The notes below the pieces were generated by a model. It was not told where the DNA came from. It was given only the letters and a program-made list of their open reading frames with translations, and did not search any database. This document shows, in pieces, positions 11,022-16,003 of a stretch of DNA of 44,957 bases (within the stretch, counting starts at the first letter, position 1; every line of letters starts with the position of its first letter). The stretch lies in NCBI GenBank assembly GCA_036625875.1, contig JAZKSW010000001.1, positions 1 through 44,957 on the forward strand, in the 5' to 3' direction. Made by a program: the position numbers and the translations under genes. Origin of the DNA: Minisyncoccota bacterium. Its GTDB lineage: Bacteria; Patescibacteriota; Minisyncoccia; Minisyncoccales; JAZKSW01.

Positions 11022-11300
11022 TTAATCTTTTTTAATTTTAATAGCCTCTCCGTTAATTAAAGCCTTTACTATTTTCTTATGAGCCTCCTTTAAGATTCTT
11101 CCCACTGTGCTTTGTGAAACTTCCATTTGTTCTGCTACTTTAGTTTGGGATTTCCCCTGTAAATCATATATTCTCAAGGCTTCTATCTCCTCAACGGACA
11201 AACACTCCTCTTCTAAATTAGCAAGGGGCACGGATCTCGGCTTGAAATAAGTTACTTTTGGATCAAAGGAAACTTTTCTTGGTTTCTTAGGTCTAACCAT
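11022..11300 (-). CDS. DUF134 (UPF0251) small DNA-binding protein
   Basis: 92 aa. PRKVSFDPKVTYFKPR plus an HTH-like segment QTKVAEQMEVSQSTVGRILKEAHKKI. Confidence 0.8.
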   Translation of the reverse strand: MVRPKKPRKVSFDPKVTYFKPRSVPLANLEEECLSVEEIEALRIYDLQGKSQTKVAEQMEVSQSTVGRILKEAHKKIVKALINGEAIKIKKD

Positions 11301-11304
11301 ATTA

Positions 11305-12171
11305 TTAAATGTTAATCTGGTTTCTTATCTTCTTATAAACTTCCTTAATTTGTCTTTTAATATCCAAATCACTTTTCATAATCGGCGTTAAAGTAGAGAC
11401 TGATTTGACTACTCCCTGATCATAACTTATCTTCCCTAGATAATTATTATCAGCCCAAGTTTTAATCTCTTTATAAATCCCTTTATTAATCTCCCACTTA
11501 TTAACTACCACACCGAACTCGACCTCAAAATGATCAATAACTTTTTTTACTCTTTTCAAATCAGCAAAACCTGATTTGGTTGGCTCCCCGATCAACACTA
11601 CGAAATCGACATCTTGAAGTGCTGCATTGACGGGACAACCAGTACCCGGAGCTGAATCTATTAACTGTAATTCAGAATCAAAGTCATCAGCCCTTCTTTT
11701 TACCTCAGTGACTATTTTGCCGGAACCGGTCTCCCCTACTTTCAATTGCCCCGTAATTAAAGGGAAGTTATGATCAGTAATTTTGTTTTTAATCCAACCA
11801 CTTTTGACTTCCTCCATACCCTCTACTGCGGGACAAAAATATTCACAAGCACCACACCCTTCACACAAAAACGGATTTACTTTTAATTCTCTTTCTTTAA
11901 CCTCCAAAGCATTAAAACGACACTGTTCTATACATGATTTTACTTTACTCACATCCGAATCGATTACTGGTCTCTCGGAAACACTAACTTCCTCAACTCT
12001 ATCCCAATTCTCAATCTCATTCAACCAAATAGCCAAGTTGGGAGCATCAACATCACAATCAACCGCCGTTACATCATTATCCTCATTGAATAAAATAGAC
12101 AAACTGGAAGCTAGCATTGACTTGCCAACACCTCCTTTGCCTCCGGAAATTGCCAATTTAATATTACTCAT
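11305..12171 (-). CDS. MinD/ParA-superfamily P-loop ATPase with inserted 4Fe-4S ferredoxin domain (COG1149-like)
   Basis: Deviant Walker A ISGGKGGVGKS. Cluster motif CEGCGACEYFCP; the first cluster motif is degenerate. Confidence 0.85.
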   Translation of the reverse strand: MSNIKLAISGGKGGVGKSMLASSLSILFNEDNDVTAVDCDVDAPNLAIWLNEIENWDRVEEVSVSERPVIDSDVSKVKSCIEQCRFNALEVKERELKVNPFLCEGCGACEYFCPAVEGMEEVKSGWIKNKITDHNFPLITGQLKVGETGSGKIVTEVKRRADDFDSELQLIDSAPGTGCPVNAALQDVDFVVLIGEPTKSGFADLKRVKKVIDHFEVEFGVVVNKWEINKGIYKEIKTWADNNYLGKISYDQGVVKSVSTLTPIMKSDLDIKRQIKEVYKKIRNQINI

Positions 12172-12725
12172 AAACCCAACTCATCAGAAATACCTTTCAT
12201 TGCATCCAAGGTAATTTCAATAAACTCTTCTAATTCCAAACCTAAATAATCTTCGGACTTAGCAATTGCCTCTCGATCGGCTCCAGCCGCAAACCTCTCT
12301 TCTTCAAATCTATTTATTACATTTTCCACTTCTAGATCTTCAATTTTATTTGAAGGTAATACCAATGTAGCAGCTACGATTAAACCGGTTAAAGAATCTA
12401 CACAATAAAGTGACTTACCCATTAAACTTTTAGGGTCCGCTTCGTGAGCACTATTATGAGTGTAGACTGCATCACATATTTTTTCAGATAATCCTTTTTC
12501 CAATAATATTTCTCTACCTAATTCTGAATGTTTACTAGGTTCGTCTTTGGTTTCTTCATAATCAATATCGTGTAGCAATCCACACACTTCCCAGCTATCA
12601 GGGTCTTTATCGAAGTGCTCAGCCAAAGATCTCATTGCCGCTCCGACCGCTAAACTATGCTTCCTTAAATTGTCAGTTTCAACCTTTTCCTTTAAGAATG
12701 TAATTGCTTGTTTTTTATTCATCAT
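12168..12725 (-). CDS. HD/HDIG-domain metal-dependent phosphohydrolase
   Basis: HSLAVGAAMRSLAEHF ... LLHDIDYE. 4-nt overlap with the downstream gene. Confidence 0.8.
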   Translation of the reverse strand: MMNKKQAITFLKEKVETDNLRKHSLAVGAAMRSLAEHFDKDPDSWEVCGLLHDIDYEETKDEPSKHSELGREILLEKGLSEKICDAVYTHNSAHEADPKSLMGKSLYCVDSLTGLIVAATLVLPSNKIEDLEVENVINRFEEERFAAGADREAIAKSEDYLGLELEEFIEITLDAMKGISDELGL

Positions 12726-14307: not shown

Positions 14308-15545
14308 TAAACTTTTTCTTTTGTTGCTTCTTCTAATCGAGTAAGTTCCTCATCGGTAAAGGCAGAAATAATACTTTCAATATCCTGCCGATCCGCCCGA
14401 TAAACACCCACAATGTTATCCCGCAAAGTATGCAATGAAATGGGACCAATTTCACTTACAATCAAAGTATCTATCTTTTTTTGGAGCAACATTTTACTGG
14501 CAGCTAAACCTGCTCTTTTATCTTTATTCTGGTAAGGATTCTTTATGACTTCAAAATCTTTAATTTTTCCCTGGTCTGTATCAAGTAAAATAAAATTGTC
14601 GGCCCTGCCAAAATAATCAGAAATTTCAGAATCAAGTTCCTTGTCTTCTTTAATGGGTATACATACTTTTTGTTTATTGGTTTCAAAGGGGACGAATTCC
14701 ACCGAGAAAGAATCTACTTTTGAAGTTTTTTCCTTTACTTTATTTTGAATACTTTCCGAAATTTCATGAGCTCTGGTAACGTTTAAACTTTTTCTTACTT
14801 TTGCCTCTACCTCTCCGAAAACGAAAGGCCCGGATTTTCTCAGTTTTAAATTATCAAAATCTTGTATACCGGAAATTTCTTCCAAAACCCCTTTTATCTT
14901 CTCTTCTATTTCCTTATCGGGAGAAACATCCATTAGGGCAAAAAGGGCATCTTTAGCGGCATCATAACCCGCTTCTAATACGAACAAAGCAATAATCATC
15001 CCGGCTATGGCTTCCAAATAAGGAATTTCAAGTAAGGTTGCTACTAAACCGACTACCACAACGAATGAAGATAGTAAATGCAATCTTGACTCACTCCCGT
15101 CAGCAATTAAACTCTGAGAATTAATACTTTCTCCGGCTTTCATTTCATAAGTTCCAATCAAAAACATCACAATACCATCCAATACAGCTATAGAAACGGC
15201 CCAAACGGGAATTCCCAATTCATACTGACCAAAAAGTTTAGAGTAACTTTCTTTGGCAATACTCCAACTGGCAAAGAAAATCAAAAAGGAAATCAGCAGG
15301 GCAGTAACATTTTCCGCTTTATAAAAACCGTAGGGAAACTTTTCCGTAGGATCTTTTTGGGCAATTTTCAAACCAATCCACGCCAAGATCGTAGACATGC
15401 CATCGGCAGCACTATGAATTGCATCTCCAATTAAAACCACACTCCCGGATAAGAATCCGATTACTCCTTTAGCAATTGCAAAGAAGAAAGTACCTCCACC
15501 GGCTACCAAAGTTGTCTTTTTACCTTTTTGAAATAAATCTTCCAT
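14307..15545 (-). CDS. Cation diffusion facilitator (CDF) transporter fused to a C-terminal NifX/NifB-like (COG1433) domain
   Basis: Six N-terminal TM segments with GDAIHSAADG and a CDF cytoplasmic domain. The last ~110 aa (KVCIPIKED...YFGRADNFILLD...AGLAASKMLLQKKIDTLIVSEIGP) resemble the adjacent NifX-like protein. Confidence 0.8.
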   Translation of the reverse strand: MEDLFQKGKKTTLVAGGGTFFFAIAKGVIGFLSGSVVLIGDAIHSAADGMSTILAWIGLKIAQKDPTEKFPYGFYKAENVTALLISFLIFFASWSIAKESYSKLFGQYELGIPVWAVSIAVLDGIVMFLIGTYEMKAGESINSQSLIADGSESRLHLLSSFVVVVGLVATLLEIPYLEAIAGMIIALFVLEAGYDAAKDALFALMDVSPDKEIEEKIKGVLEEISGIQDFDNLKLRKSGPFVFGEVEAKVRKSLNVTRAHEISESIQNKVKEKTSKVDSFSVEFVPFETNKQKVCIPIKEDKELDSEISDYFGRADNFILLDTDQGKIKDFEVIKNPYQNKDKRAGLAASKMLLQKKIDTLIVSEIGPISLHTLRDNIVGVYRADRQDIESIISAFTDEELTRLEEATKEKV

Positions 15546-15568
15546 TCTTTAAAAGTTTAGGATTATAA

Positions 15569-16003
15569 TCAACGTGGCCCTCTACCTTTCTTTCCATTTC
15601 CATTAGAGCCACGGCCTCTCCCGGGACCCTTTCCTCTACCGGAACCGGGACCTCGTCCAGCTGGGCCAGTCGGTGTTTCAGCTTTATTCAAATCTCCGTT
15701 CTTCCATTTCTCAAATACCTCTTCAACGCTTATACCTGTCGTTAGAAATATCTCTATACCGGCAGTTTGTAAAGCAGAAAATGCATTTGGTCCAATCCTC
15801 CCCGTAATTAAGGCTTCAACTCCTTGATCGGCAATAGTTTGGGCAGCTTGAACACCCGCTCCTCTTTGAGCCCCTACTCCGGGATTAGAAACAACCTCAT
15901 CTAAATTACCTTCTTCATCAAGGATAAGAAAGTGTTGACTTCTTCCGAAGCGGGGATTTACATTTGATTCTAATGTTTGACCTGAACTTGTTACGGCTAT
16001 CAT
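15569..16003 (-). CDS. NifX/NifB-C-terminal-like (COG1433) protein with Gly/Arg-rich tail
   Basis: PRFGRSQHFLILD...GAGVQAAQTIADQGVEALITGRIGPNA. Tail PTGPAGRGPGSGRGKGPGRGRGSNGNGKKGRGPR. Confidence 0.8.
   Translation of the reverse strand: MIAVTSSGQTLESNVNPRFGRSQHFLILDEEGNLDEVVSNPGVGAQRGAGVQAAQTIADQGVEALITGRIGPNAFSALQTAGIEIFLTTGISVEEVFEKWKNGDLNKAETPTGPAGRGPGSGRGKGPGRGRGSNGNGKKGRGPR

What the first reader, a model, noticed from the sequence alone, without database searches (positions are those of the whole stretch)
11022..16003. Translationally coupled operon joining uncharacterised metallocluster proteins with thioredoxin, a LigD-type phosphoesterase and an HD hydrolase
Seven genes from 15545 down to 11022 are linked by 1-14-nt overlaps or a 4-nt gap: TAATG at 14307, overlaps at 13456-13469, 13155-13158, 12715-12725 and 12168-12171, and the junction 11300/11305. 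In order they are CDF-NifX fusion, MinD-ferredoxin ATPase, thioredoxin, PE domain, HD, a second MinD-ferredoxin ATPase and DUF134. A separate NifX-like gene sits upstream. The co-occurrence of COG1149-, COG1433- and DUF134-type genes in anaerobes is established, but as far as I know their function is not. Embedding a redox protein and two phosphoesterases inside this set looks unusual. It suggests either a cofactor-handling pathway involving a phosphorylated or nucleotide-linked intermediate, or extreme operon compaction.
Basis: partly seen in the sequence, partly recalled or inferred. Interest (0 to 1): 0.75.

Follow-up and report, generated by a model that had tools for sequence, protein, structure and literature searches.

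The report
Iron-sulfur operon with variable cargo slot
A tightly packed eight-gene operon in a small-genome (CPR) bacterium is a variant of a known but poorly understood metal-sulfide handling system of anaerobes, and the thioredoxin, DNA-end-repair and HD genes inside it are lineage-specific passengers in a variable slot, not steps of a new cofactor pathway.

Summary

The upstream NifX-like gene is the first gene of the same unit, which is bounded by terminator, promoter and terminator-like signals.

Twelve related CPR loci share a frame: NifX-like protein with a cationic Gly/Arg tail, CDF-NifX fusion, MinD-ferredoxin A, a slot, MinD-ferredoxin B, DUF134. The slot is empty in two relatives. 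In the others it holds 3 to 13 different genes.
- Trx occurs in 6 of the 12 samples, PE in 5 and HD in 4.
- Close relatives differ from the window by clean cassette indels at gene boundaries.
- PE-HD also occurs with no frame nearby.
- Among 80 diverse PE loci, only one has a MinD-ferredoxin-like gene within 10 kb.

So Trx, PE and HD are not core parts. The "compaction" reading is supported and the "phosphorylated cofactor intermediate" reading is not. Slot genes are strongly enriched for metal, redox and metalloenzyme functions, which suggests selected co-expression.

The closest known systems are the Desulfovibrio ORP complex and IssA/IssX. I rate this a new variant of a known kind, of moderate interest.

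The parts
16079..16102 (-). Intrinsic terminator ending the upstream EncFtn-like gene. It marks the 5' boundary of the unit.
   Evidence: 10-bp stem with 6 G-C pairs followed by a T-run.
16014..16063 (-). Two overlapping sigma-70-like promoter matches directly upstream of the NifX-like gene.
   Evidence: TTGACA-18-TAACAT with a TG extension (10/12) and TTGATA-18-AATAAT (10/12). These are consensus matches only.
15569..16003 (-). First gene of the unit: a NifX-like (IPR003731/PF02579) protein with a cationic Gly/Arg-rich C-terminal tail and no cysteine. It is IssA/IssX-like and orange-protein-like.
   Evidence: PF02579 at 2.5e-22. Best solved structures are MTH1175 (1eo1, 6.5e-23) and ORP (2wfb, 2.2e-17). 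The tail has pI 12.0 with 14 Gly and 10 Arg+Lys in 39 residues, and a cationic tail is present in all 6 orthologues examined. The protein has no Cys.
14307..15545 (-). [quoted passage not shown]
   Evidence: PF01545 + PF16916 + PF02579. TIGR01297 scores 195 bits, and the best specific models are MamB/MamM/MntE/FieF, all below their cut-offs. The fusion family is well populated.
13456..14307 (-). MinD-ferredoxin ATPase A, of Orp3/Orp4 type: a P-loop ATPase with an inserted 2x[4Fe-4S] ferredoxin.
   Evidence: CbiA/ParA plus Fer4 families. Two CxxCxxCxxxC motifs at residues 75-85 and 105-115. No full-length solved homologue.
13155..13469 (-). Thioredoxin with a CAPC active site. First cargo gene of the slot.
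   Evidence: TIGR01068, 107.3 bits against a cut-off of 96.8. CAPC at residues 29-32. Present in the slot in 6 of 12 lineage samples.
12715..13158 (-). Stand-alone LigD-type 3'-phosphoesterase (PE). Second cargo gene of the slot.
   Evidence: TIGR02777, 194.8 bits against a cut-off of 144. Matches 3p43 at 1.1e-46. Catalytic residues H33, H39, D41, R43, H75 and Y79 are all present.
12168..12725 (-). HD/HDIG phosphohydrolase of a conserved 184-aa CPR family. Third cargo gene of the slot.
   Evidence: PF01966 and TIGR00277. 1916 homologues, many named Patescibacteria or Nealsonbacteria. Model pLDDT 96.8, with only weak structural neighbours, all nucleotide-directed HD enzymes.
11305..12171 (-). 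MinD-ferredoxin ATPase B, a paralogue of A. Its first Fe-S motif is degenerate and its second is intact.
   Evidence: CbiA/ParA with weak Fer4 hits. Cys only at 80 and 84 in the first motif, and at 103/106/109/113 in the second. The relatives are CPR.
11022..11300 (-). DUF134 small helix-turn-helix protein, the last gene of the unit and its candidate regulator.
   Evidence: PF02001 at 2e-20 plus sigma-70 region 4-like HTH hits. The HTH resembles the DeoR N-terminus. It follows MinD-Fd B in L088, L092, L093 and L098.
10965..11001 (-). AT-rich hairpin plus U-run after DUF134. Probable 3' end of the unit.
   Evidence: 12-bp stem, dG -11.2 kcal/mol, z -1.83, with 12 of 200 shuffles folding as well. 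Support is moderate.

Best explanation
The region is a single eight-gene transcription unit (16003 down to 11022) of a Parcubacteria-type CPR bacterium.

Five of its genes form a conserved frame:
- a cysteine-free NifX-like protein with a cationic Gly/Arg tail (IssA/IssX- and orange-protein-like);
- a CDF metal transporter fused to a second NifX-like domain;
- two paralogous MinD-type ATPases with inserted ferredoxins (Orp3/Orp4-like);
- a DUF134 HTH protein.

By homology (inferred, not shown), this frame binds, stores or hands on an anionic iron-sulfide or metal-sulfide species. The two NifX-like domains would act as non-covalent binding sites. The two Fe-S ATPases would act as the ATP-driven partners that co-purify with the NifX-like protein in Desulfovibrio. 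The CDF would move the divalent metal across the membrane. DUF134 would be the likely regulator.

The junction between the two ATPase genes is a permissive slot in which different lineages carry different cargo. Here the cargo is thioredoxin, a catalytically intact Mn-dependent DNA 3'-end-healing phosphoesterase, and a nucleotide-directed HD hydrolase. They are packed by deletion to overlapping stop/start codons, so they are translated by coupling (inferred).

The cargo genes are passengers that share expression with the frame. They are not steps in cofactor assembly. Slot cargo across lineages is overwhelmingly metal transport, thiol/electron carriers, Fe-S enzymes and metallohydrolases. The likely benefit is therefore co-expression of metal- or redox-dependent enzymes with metal and redox supply (inferred).
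For: Unit boundaries: terminator, promoter-like sites and a terminator-like hairpin. Packing.

The frame is conserved in order, at 45-68% amino-acid identity, in L003, L085, L089, L092, L093, L095 and L098.

Slot content by lineage:
- empty in L085 and L093;
- CMD plus an ABC-3 transporter in L095;
- HD added to that in L098;
- FeoAB and PE in L090;
- GDH-Trx-UDG in L094;
- 9 to 13 genes including Trx, UDG and PE in L092 and L003;
- Trx-unk381-PE-HD in L001;
- Trx-65aa-unk383-HD in L088.

Further points:
- The window, L001 and L088 differ by cassette indels at gene boundaries, at 71-80% DNA identity.
- The PE-HD pair occurs with no frame within 10 kb in L097.
- There is no PE-frame association across 80 diverse loci.
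- 46 of 52 annotated slot genes are metal/redox/metalloenzyme, against 9 of 53 flanking genes. It is still 33/52 against 7/53 without PE, HD, Lactamase_B and Metallophos.
- The frame proteins have homologues in the ORP complex and IssA.
- PE has an intact active site.
- The wider window is iron/redox rich: IscSU-Rrf2, EncFtn, and Fur-SOD-hemerythrin-rubrerythrin.
Against: - No expression, interaction or metal data exist for this or any CPR version. The biochemical role of the frame is inferred from distant homologues whose own function is 'still unclear'.
- The slot-versus-flank enrichment uses my own categories, and the lineages are not phylogenetically independent. A shared ancestral metal/redox neighbourhood could produce part of it.
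- Only about 12 lineage samples were seen, most from fragmentary metagenome contigs.
- Trx, PE and HD recur in the slot more often than a purely random passenger model would predict (6, 5 and 4 of 12), so some specific functional tie cannot be excluded.
- The terminator after DUF134 is weak, so read-through into the RNR gene is possible.
Confidence: 0.55

Rival explanations
1. Neutral compaction only. In a shrinking genome, intergenic DNA and genes were deleted until unrelated neighbours became overlapping. The slot content has no functional relation to the frame, and its metal/redox flavour only reflects an ancestral neighbourhood.
For: - The cargos look nested, as if trimmed: L003 > L092 > L001 > window.
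- Indels are clean and fall at gene boundaries.
- HD is a conserved CPR gene found in many other contexts.
- Tight junctions also occur elsewhere in the window.
Against: - Different lineages carry different, apparently independently acquired metal transporters in the same slot: Zip, ABC-3 and FeoAB.
- Slot genes are 46/52 metal/redox against 9/53 in the flanks.
- No translation or cell-envelope gene was seen in any slot.
Confidence: 0.25
2. A DNA-precursor and repair module. Trx (the reductant of the class II RNR), PE (3'-end cleaning) and HD ((d)NTP or nucleotide hydrolase) would belong functionally with the B12-dependent ribonucleotide reductase just downstream. The MinD-Fd B and DUF134 genes would simply lie between them.
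For: - An RNR lies next to the frame or to PE in several lineages: window, L088 and L003 (NrdJ downstream of B), L095 (NrdDG upstream) and L002 (UDG-PE-NrdD-NrdG).
- The window RNR is NrdJ, with an ATP-cone and a Cys-rich C-terminal tail.
- PE is coupled to family-4 UDG in L002, L003 and L092.
- The structural neighbours of HD all act on nucleotides.
Against: - The RNR has its own near-consensus promoter (11/12), and a hairpin with a U-run separates it from DUF134.
- Trx, PE and HD sit upstream of MinD-Fd B and are translationally coupled to it, not to the RNR.
- No RNR lies within 10 kb of the frame in L089-91, L093, L094 or L098.
Confidence: 0.12
3. PE and HD would act as phosphoesterases on a phosphorylated or nucleotide-linked intermediate of a metallocluster or cofactor made by the MinD-Fd/NifX proteins, with Trx as the redox partner.
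For: - Tight translational coupling inside the metallocluster gene set.
- Recurrence of PE, HD and Trx in the slot in several CPR lineages.
- Neither the HD substrate nor the frame's function is known.
Against: - The frame occurs with no slot genes at all (L085, L093), and with cargo that contains no phosphoesterase (L094, L095).
- A close relative lacks PE (L088).
- PE-HD exists away from any frame (L097).
- The PE active site is identical to that of DNA 3'-end-healing enzymes, and PE pairs with UDG in relatives.
- Only 1 of 80 PE loci elsewhere has a MinD-Fd-like neighbour.
Confidence: 0.07

Closest known systems
Orange-protein (ORP) complex of Desulfovibrio vulgaris Hildenborough (Orp3/Orp4/Orp5/Orp8/Orp9=MrpORP)
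   Same: - Two paralogous MinD-like ATPases with ferredoxin-type [4Fe-4S] motifs (Orp3/Orp4), encoded next to each other.
- A single-domain NifX-like ('Di-Nase') protein (Orp8, the orange protein) that co-purifies with them.
- A second Di-Nase domain fused to another protein.
- Restricted to anaerobes and expressed at low redox potential (PMC6345978, PMC8359166). The window's NifX-like protein matches ORP 2wfb at 2.2e-17.
   Different: - There is no Mrp/NBP35-Di-Nase fusion. The second Di-Nase domain is fused to a CDF membrane transporter instead.
- It is a single unidirectional sigma-70-type unit, not two divergent sigma-54/OrpR operons.
- A DUF134 HTH protein replaces an enhancer-binding protein as the candidate regulator.
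- MinD-Fd B has lost one Fe-S motif.
- The NifX-like protein carries a cationic tail.
- Cargo genes sit between the two ATPase genes.
IssA of Pyrococcus furiosus and the uncharacterised 'IssX' clade (thioferrate iron-sulfur storage)
   Same: An N-terminal IPR003731 globular domain followed by an unstructured, glycine-rich, cationic tail of high pI. The best solved-structure match is MTH1175, the IssA-type template used by Vaccaro et al. (PMC5524996).
   Different: - The tail is shorter (about 39 aa against 70).
- It has no aromatic residues in the window protein and only 1-3 in relatives.
- The organism is a mesophilic bacterium, so it fits the 'IssX' description better.
- Thioferrate binding is untested.
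Stand-alone LigD-type 3'-phosphoesterases (CkoPE, MbaPE; Smith et al. 2011)
   Same: The same size and fold family, and all six catalytic residues. No Ku or LigD ligase/polymerase partner was found among the 40 window proteins scanned against Pfam.
   Different: Smith et al. noted that the archaeal PE genes are not clustered with repair genes. Here, the CPR relatives couple PE to a family-4 UDG by 4-nt overlaps, and the window couples PE to Trx and HD inside a metal-handling operon.
Fe/Mn/Zn cation diffusion facilitators (MamB/MamM, MntE, FieF)
   Same: The transmembrane domain plus the cytoplasmic ZT_dimer domain. The best NCBIfam models are MamB (138 bits) and MamM (125 bits).
   Different: All specific models score far below their cut-offs, so the metal is unassigned. 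The extra C-terminal NifX-like domain has not been described, to my knowledge.
Nucleotide-directed HD hydrolases (PgpH, YqeK, YpgQ, dNTP triphosphohydrolase)
   Same: An all-helical HD fold and a conserved H...HD...H...H...D set of residues.
   Different: Only weak structural similarity (TM about 0.5, E at least 1.7e-3), and no sequence match in the PDB. It is a distinct 184-aa CPR family of unknown substrate.

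Membership tests
ORP-complex-type gene cluster (Desulfovibrio Orp3/4/8/9) | Two paralogous MinD-like P-loop ATPases, each with two [4Fe-4S] ferredoxin motifs | tested here: inconclusive
   A has both CxxCxxCxxxC motifs. B has one complete and one degenerate motif (C80 and C84 only).
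ORP-complex-type gene cluster (Desulfovibrio Orp3/4/8/9) | Single-domain NifX-like (Di-Nase) protein homologous to the orange protein | tested here: met
   PF02579 at 2.5e-22. Matches ORP 2wfb at 2.2e-17 over residues 2-111.
ORP-complex-type gene cluster (Desulfovibrio Orp3/4/8/9) | Mrp/NBP35-Di-Nase fusion protein (MrpORP/Orp9) | tested here: not met
   The NF041136 MrpORP model gives only partial hits of 25-52 bits against a cut-off of 450. No Mrp/NBP35 gene is in the unit. The Di-Nase domain is fused to a CDF instead.
ORP-complex-type gene cluster (Desulfovibrio Orp3/4/8/9) | Two divergent operons under sigma-54 and the enhancer-binding protein OrpR | tested here: not met
   All eight genes are on one strand, behind sigma-70-like promoter matches. 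No EBP was found among the 40 window proteins scanned against Pfam. No scan for sigma-54 promoters was run.
ORP-complex-type gene cluster (Desulfovibrio Orp3/4/8/9) | Physical complex of the ATPases with the NifX-like protein | not testable with these tools
   This needs co-purification or multimer modelling.
IssA / IssX iron-sulfur storage proteins | N-terminal IPR003731 (NifX-like) globular domain | tested here: met
   The best PDB hit is MTH1175, the IssA-type template.
IssA / IssX iron-sulfur storage proteins | Glycine-rich cationic C-terminal tail of high pI | tested here: met
   The tail has pI 12.0 with 14 Gly and 10 Arg+Lys in 39 residues. A cationic tail (pI 10.7-12.0) is present in all six orthologues examined.
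IssA / IssX iron-sulfur storage proteins | Aromatic residues interspersed in the tail (14 of 70 in P. furiosus IssA) | tested here: not met
   There are no aromatic residues in the window tail and 1-3 in relatives. This fits the looser 'IssX' description better than IssA proper.
IssA / IssX iron-sulfur storage proteins | Placement in the IssA or IssX clade of the IPR003731 tree, and thioferrate binding | not tested
   No reference IssA/IssX sequence set was available. Binding needs biochemistry.
LigD 3'-phosphoesterase (PE) superfamily | PE-domain model above the curated cut-off | tested here: met
   TIGR02777 at 194.8 bits against 144, and PF13298 at 135.8 bits against 31.1.
LigD 3'-phosphoesterase (PE) superfamily | Six catalytic residues (two His and one Asp binding Mn; Arg, His and Tyr binding phosphate) | tested here: met
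   H33, H39, D41, R43, H75 and Y79 align with MbaPE H36, H42, D44, R46, H78 and Y82.
Bacterial NHEJ LigD system | PE linked to the LigD ligase and polymerase domains and to Ku | tested here: not met
   The protein is a stand-alone 147 aa. No Ku, ligase or polymerase domain was found among the 40 window proteins scanned against Pfam. The rest of the genome is unknown.
Thioredoxin | Thioredoxin model above cut-off and a CxxC active site | tested here: met
   TIGR01068 at 107.3 bits against 96.8. The motif is WKPGCAPC, where the canonical form is CGPC. Relatives have CPPC or CSPC.
HD/HDIG metal-dependent phosphohydrolases | HD model above cut-off with conserved His/Asp metal ligands | tested here: met
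   PF01966 at 48.5 bits against 22, and TIGR00277 at 48 bits against 27.6. H23, H52, D53, H66, H90, H94 and D110 are invariant in 57 homologues.
Specific HD subfamilies (YqeK, PgpH, dNTPase, YpgQ) | Close sequence or structure match to a characterised member | tested here: not met
   No PDB sequence hit at E<0.01. The best Foldseek match is E 1.7e-3 with TM about 0.5.
Cation diffusion facilitators | CDF superfamily model above cut-off | tested here: met
   TIGR01297 at 194.8 bits against 82.35. No metal-specific equivalog reaches its cut-off.

The most novel reading that the evidence does not exclude
The conserved CPR frame would be a dedicated machine that stores or exports an iron-sulfide (thioferrate-type) or other metal-sulfide species. 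Its parts are an IssX-like scaffold, a CDF transporter whose cytoplasmic NifX-like domain receives or senses the cargo, two Orp3/4-like Fe-S ATPases, and a DUF134 regulator.

Its internal slot would be a selected 'client dock', which ensures that metal- or thiol-dependent enzymes are made together with their metal and redox supply. Those enzymes include the Mn-dependent PE and, in relatives, the Fe-S family-4 UDG.

A corollary is that stand-alone PE enzymes work in base-excision repair, cleaning 3' ends after UDG and AP-lyase action. This would answer the question, open since 2011, of what stand-alone PEs do.
Probability: 0.2. Interest if true: 0.7.

Novelty: new variant of a known kind. Interest (0 to 1): 0.4.

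Why it matters
- **Model for an unexplained system.** The MinD-ferredoxin/NifX-like/DUF134 gene set is widespread in anaerobes and is still functionally unexplained, even in Desulfovibrio. A minimal CPR version offers a compact model and points to iron-sulfide handling at the membrane. It has an IssA-like tailed scaffold, a transporter-NifX fusion, and cargo genes limited to metal and redox functions.
- **Operon architecture.** A variable slot inside a translationally coupled operon is a useful example of how reduced genomes reuse one promoter for changing sets of accessory genes.
- **Stand-alone PE function.** The UDG-PE coupling seen in relatives gives a testable role, in base-excision repair, for stand-alone PE enzymes. 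Their pathway has been unknown.
- **Annotation.** For genome annotation, the result warns against inferring a shared pathway from tight gene overlap alone in CPR genomes.

Tried and rejected
- **Exact look-up of the window PE protein:** not on record.
- **Metagenome scan with MinD-Fd B:** only one true relative, L085. The other two hits were 24-residue P-loop matches.
- **Genome scan with PE:** 80 loci, none from the window's close relatives. It was useful only as a negative control for association.
- **tRNA and Rfam scans of the window:** nothing found.
- **Literature on DUF134, COG1149 and COG1433:** nothing relevant. 'DUF134' as a word start mostly matched DUF134x families. A search on CPR, RNR and thioredoxin was also unhelpful.
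- **Whether Orp7 (DVU2107) is a DUF134 protein:** the papers read do not say, so no claim is made.
- **HD function:** no PDB sequence match and only weak fold matches despite a very confident model. No substrate is assigned.
- **A PE remnant in L088, where PE is missing:** none found. The 65-aa ORF there is an unrelated Cys-rich peptide.
- **Homologues of UDG, CMD, the Gly/Arg-rich Zn-ribbon protein or unk381 in the window:** none found.
- **A shared operator-like repeat upstream of the operon and of the RNR:** none convincing. The 22-nt similarity between 10986-11007 and 16449-16470 is the T-rich tail of two terminator-like hairpins.
- **Taxon names for the NCBI-sourced relatives:** the cluster look-up returned none, apart from Nealsonbacteria for one HD cluster.

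Full report
**Observation**

- NifX-like, 15569-16003, followed by a 23-nt gap.
- CDF-NifX fusion, 14307-15545, joined to the next gene by TAATG (1-nt overlap).
- MinD-ferredoxin A, 13456-14307, followed by a 14-nt overlap.
- Thioredoxin, 13155-13469, followed by a 4-nt overlap.
- PE, 12715-13158, followed by an 11-nt overlap.
- HD, 12168-12725, followed by a 4-nt overlap.
- MinD-ferredoxin B, 11305-12171, followed by a 4-nt gap.
- DUF134, 11022-11300.

Pfam and NCBIfam confirm every domain call above the curated cut-offs. The packing is not just the genomic norm. Of 46 same-strand junctions in the window, 13 are 4 nt or less. Six of these are consecutive here, the longest run in the window, and elsewhere only 7 of 40 are tight. 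Most start codons lack a recognisable Shine-Dalgarno sequence, so translational coupling is plausible, but it is inferred.

**Boundaries of the unit**

- A strong terminator (10-bp stem, 16102-16079) closes the upstream EncFtn-like gene.
- Two sigma-70-like promoter matches (16063-16014) precede the NifX-like gene.
- After DUF134 comes a 12-bp AT-rich hairpin with a U-run at 11001-10965 (dG -11.2 kcal/mol, z -1.8).
- The best promoter match of the whole 11-kb region (TTGACT-16-TATAAT, 10911-10884) then precedes the class II ribonucleotide reductase.

The 'separate' NifX-like gene is therefore the first gene of the unit, and the RNR is probably a separate unit. These are consensus matches, not transcript data.

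**Organism and surroundings**

The window is bacterial (BacA, AddA-type helicase-nuclease, Germane/Gmad2). Named relatives of MinD-Fd B and of HD are Patescibacteria, Parcubacteria and Nealsonbacteria.

The neighbourhood is rich in iron and redox genes:
- IscU-IscS-Rrf2 at 3-2099.
- An EncFtn-like ferritin at 16108-16389.
- Fur-SOD-hemerythrin-rubrerythrin at 31839-33723.
- NrdJ with CobA, DUF4430 and DUF6580 (B12 handling) just downstream.

No Ku, LigD ligase/polymerase or encapsulin shell was found among the 40 window proteins scanned against Pfam.

**Is the linkage conserved? Distant control**

A scan of one genome per species with the PE protein returned 80 loci from very diverse archaea and bacteria. 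About half were full-length LigD. Within 10 kb of PE, only one locus had a MinD-Fd-like gene, none had NifX, DUF134, HD or NrdJ, and two had a thioredoxin-like hit. PE as a family is not linked to this gene set.

**Is the linkage conserved? Related CPR lineages**

Looking up homologues of PE, MinD-Fd B and HD gave about twelve lineage samples (uniform re-annotation).

A conserved frame emerges: a NifX-like gene, CDF-NifX, MinD-Fd A, then MinD-Fd B and usually DUF134. The order is always the same, at 45-68% identity to the window proteins. In six relatives a small Gly/Arg-rich zinc-ribbon protein precedes the frame.

What lies between A and B varies greatly:

| Locus | Genes between MinD-Fd A and MinD-Fd B |
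|---|---|
| L085, L093 | none (the five frame genes overlap one another) |
| L095/96 | CMD, ABC_tran, ABC-3 |
| L098 | CMD, Lactamase_B, 62 aa, HD, ABC_tran, ABC-3 |
| L089 | CMD, unknown, ferredoxin, ACS, 71-aa Lactamase_B fragment, ABC_tran, ABC-3 |
| L090/91 | as L089, plus DtxR/FeoA, FeoB, an ABC pair, PE and DUF523 |
| L094 | GDH, Trx, UDG |
| L092 | POR alpha/beta, 69 aa, Trx, CMD, unk374, Metallophos, UDG, PE |
| L003/4 | as L092, plus NifX-Fd, Zip and flavodoxin |
| L001 | Trx, unk381, PE, HD |
| L088 | Trx, 65 aa, unk383, HD |
| window | Trx, PE, HD |

Over these samples Trx is in the slot 6 times, PE 5, CMD 5, HD 4, ABC-3 4 and UDG 3.

**Close relatives**

The closest relatives pin the events down.
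- L001 (PE 84%, Trx 93%, HD 78%) is collinear with the window at about 79% DNA identity. It differs by a 1.18-kb insert, the unknown 381-aa gene, exactly at the Trx|PE junction.
- L088 (NrdJ 84%, Trx 77%, HD 75%, DUF134 75%) is collinear at 71-78%. Between Trx and HD it has a 65-aa ORF plus the 383-aa unknown in place of PE, with no PE remnant.
- In L097, PE and HD are adjacent with no frame gene within 10 kb.

So the three embedded genes are individually dispensable, movable cassettes. Equally, the genes are not integral to the frame.

**What the parts are: the frame**

- **NifX-like protein.** It has no cysteine and ends in a tail of pI 12 (14 Gly and 10 Arg/Lys in 39 residues). Such a cationic tail is present in all six orthologues checked. 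Its best solved relatives are MTH1175 and the Desulfovibrio orange protein.
- **Link to IssA.** Vaccaro et al. define IssA, and an uncharacterised mesophilic 'IssX' clade, by this same domain plus a glycine-rich cationic tail. They propose that the tail wraps anionic thioferrate, and they used MTH1175 as the structural template (PMC5524996).
- **The two MinD-Fd proteins.** They match the description of Orp3/Orp4, which co-purify with the NifX-like Orp8 and receive Fe-S clusters from MrpORP (PMC6345978). A has two complete CxxCxxCxxxC motifs. B has lost the first one. No full-length solved structure exists for this family.
- **The CDF.** It scores best against MamB/MamM/MntE/FieF models but reaches no metal-specific cut-off. 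Its C-terminal NifX-like domain has a single Cys, in the linker.
- **How common the fusion is.** Most of the best 150 cluster representatives are 400-450 aa and align across the whole query.
- **DUF134.** It is a small HTH protein whose helix-turn-helix resembles the DeoR N-terminus.

**What the parts are: the cargo**

- **PE.** It aligns end to end with the solved archaeal stand-alone enzymes (3p43 at 1.1e-46). It retains H33, H39, D41, R43, H75 and Y79, the six residues shown by mutagenesis to be needed for Mn-dependent 3'-end healing (PMC3082917).
- **UDG partner.** In L003 and L092 the PE gene overlaps by 4 nt a family-4 uracil-DNA glycosylase, and in L002 the two are 1 nt apart. This points to DNA repair, not cofactor chemistry.
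- **HD.** It belongs to a tightly conserved 184-aa CPR family with 1916 homologues, whose invariant residues are H23, H52, D53, H66, H90, H94 and D110. A very confident model (pLDDT 96.8) has only weak structural neighbours (TM about 0.5). All of them are nucleotide-directed HD enzymes: PgpH, YqeK, dNTPase, YpgQ and the GlyRS-beta HD domain. The enzyme class is clear and the substrate is not.
- **Thioredoxin.** It has a CAPC site. Slot thioredoxins in relatives have CPPC or CSPC.

**Interpretation**

Shown:
- the gene content;
- the tight packing;
- the conserved frame;
- the variable slot;
- the cassette indels;
- the absence of a general PE-frame association;
- the intact PE active site.

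Inferred:
- The frame handles an anionic metal-sulfide species, by homology to ORP and IssA. The physiological role of those systems is itself unsettled. [quoted passage not shown]
- Cargo genes benefit from co-expression with the frame.

The second inference rests on a rough comparison. Of the annotated slot genes, 46 of 52 are metal transporters, thiol/electron carriers, Fe-S proteins or metallohydrolases, against 9 of 53 genes flanking the frame in the same loci (Fisher p about 4e-14). The figures are 33/52 against 7/53 if PE, HD, Lactamase_B and Metallophos are not counted.

There are caveats. The categories are mine, the lineages are related, and part of the signal could be an inherited neighbourhood. 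On the other hand, different lineages carry three different metal-uptake systems (Zip, ABC-3, FeoAB) at the same position, which argues for repeated selection.

**Rivals**

- **Pure neutral compaction** explains the nested, trimmed appearance of the cargos but not the functional bias.
- **A DNA-precursor/repair module tied to the RNR** is suggested by RNR genes near the frame or near PE in five lineages: window, L088, L003, L095 and L002. It is weakened by the RNR's own promoter, by the intervening hairpin, and by lineages with no RNR nearby.

**Comparison, novelty and score**

The unit works like, and is partly homologous to, the ORP complex, and its first gene fits the IssA/IssX description. 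It is not a member of the ORP cluster as defined in Desulfovibrio. The MrpORP fusion and the sigma-54/OrpR control are absent, a CDF-NifX fusion and DUF134 are present, and one ATPase has a degenerate Fe-S motif.

I found no paper describing the CDF-NifX fusion, the CPR frame or the slot, but the library searched is limited. I rate it a new variant of a known kind.

Interest is moderate, at 0.4. The frame itself, the slot behaviour and the UDG-PE coupling are worthwhile leads.

Noticed in passing
L093:7339-7539; L085:5927-6154; L089:669-950; L092:2-145; L095:4762-4980 (plus DUF5320 at L095:4396-4722); L098:5304-5531: A small protein of 66-93 aa sits immediately upstream of the NifX-like gene in six relatives. 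It has a Gly/Arg-rich N-terminus and a C-terminal CxxC...CxxC zinc ribbon, and is sometimes preceded by a DUF5320 protein. It looks like a further frame component. The window has no homologue: an EncFtn-like gene and a terminator occupy that position.
   Followed up: partly
L003:9393-10441; L092:8612-9681; L002:980-2027: A family-4 uracil-DNA glycosylase (TIGR00758, above cut-off) is translationally coupled to the stand-alone PE gene. The overlap is 4 nt in two lineages and the gap is 1 nt in a third. This suggests a base-excision-repair role for stand-alone PE enzymes, whose pathway was left open in the 2011 structural paper.
   Followed up: partly
L001:207-1352; L088:342-1493; L003:5886-7016; L092:6487-7611; weaker in L089:4181-5644: A conserved protein of about 375-385 aa with no Pfam family recurs in the slot next to Trx/CMD. 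It has only a sub-threshold Thioredoxin_3 hint at its N-terminus. It is absent from the window.
   Followed up: partly
window 31839-33723 (-): A second iron/oxidative-stress cluster: Fur (33337-33723), Fe/Mn superoxide dismutase (32705-33289), hemerythrin (32238-32690) and rubrerythrin (31839-32219). Together with IscU-IscS-Rrf2 (3-2099), this makes the whole window unusually rich in iron and redox genes.
   Followed up: no
window 16108-16389 (-); L097:574-855: A 93-aa EncFtn-like/rubrerythrin-type ferritin scores below the curated encapsulin-cargo cut-offs. No encapsulin shell was found among the 40 window proteins scanned against Pfam. A homologue 76% identical lies 9 kb upstream of the PE-HD pair in L097.
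   Followed up: no
window 8308-10875 (-); L088:3392-7057: The class II (NrdJ) ribonucleotide reductase has an ATP-cone and a Cys-rich C-terminal tail (CPECN...CKTCPNCGWSAC). Its 84%-identical orthologue in L088 carries an intein with a LAGLIDADG domain. L003 has a different NrdJ subtype (24% identity) at the same position, and L095 and L002 have NrdD/NrdG instead.
   Followed up: partly
window 6396-8042 (-): CobA (ATP:corrinoid adenosyltransferase), DUF4430 and DUF6580 follow the B12-dependent RNR. They plausibly form a corrinoid uptake and adenosylation module. CobA also follows the RNR in L003.
   Followed up: no
window 11305-12171 (-): MinD-Fd B has lost the first ferredoxin Cys motif, keeping only C80 and C84. 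The closest relatives (65-70% identity) also lack Fer4 Pfam hits, whereas more distant B-type proteins keep them.
   Followed up: partly
window 13155-13469; L003:4996-5367; L092:5648-5962; L094:1874-2194: The slot thioredoxins all have non-canonical active sites: CAPC, CPPC, CPPC and CSPC, where the usual form is CGPC.
   Followed up: no
L098:6090-7647: In this relative the CDF (416 aa) and its NifX-like domain (112 aa) are called as two overlapping genes. This is either a true split or a frameshift in the assembly.
   Followed up: no
window 16392-16493 (-): The intergenic region between the 106-aa membrane protein gene and the EncFtn-like gene folds well (dG -21.8 kcal/mol, z -2.6). It starts with a GGAGGUU/AACCUCC hairpin plus a U-run, probably a terminator. 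Its T-rich tail resembles the one after DUF134 (22 nt, 91% identical).
   Followed up: partly
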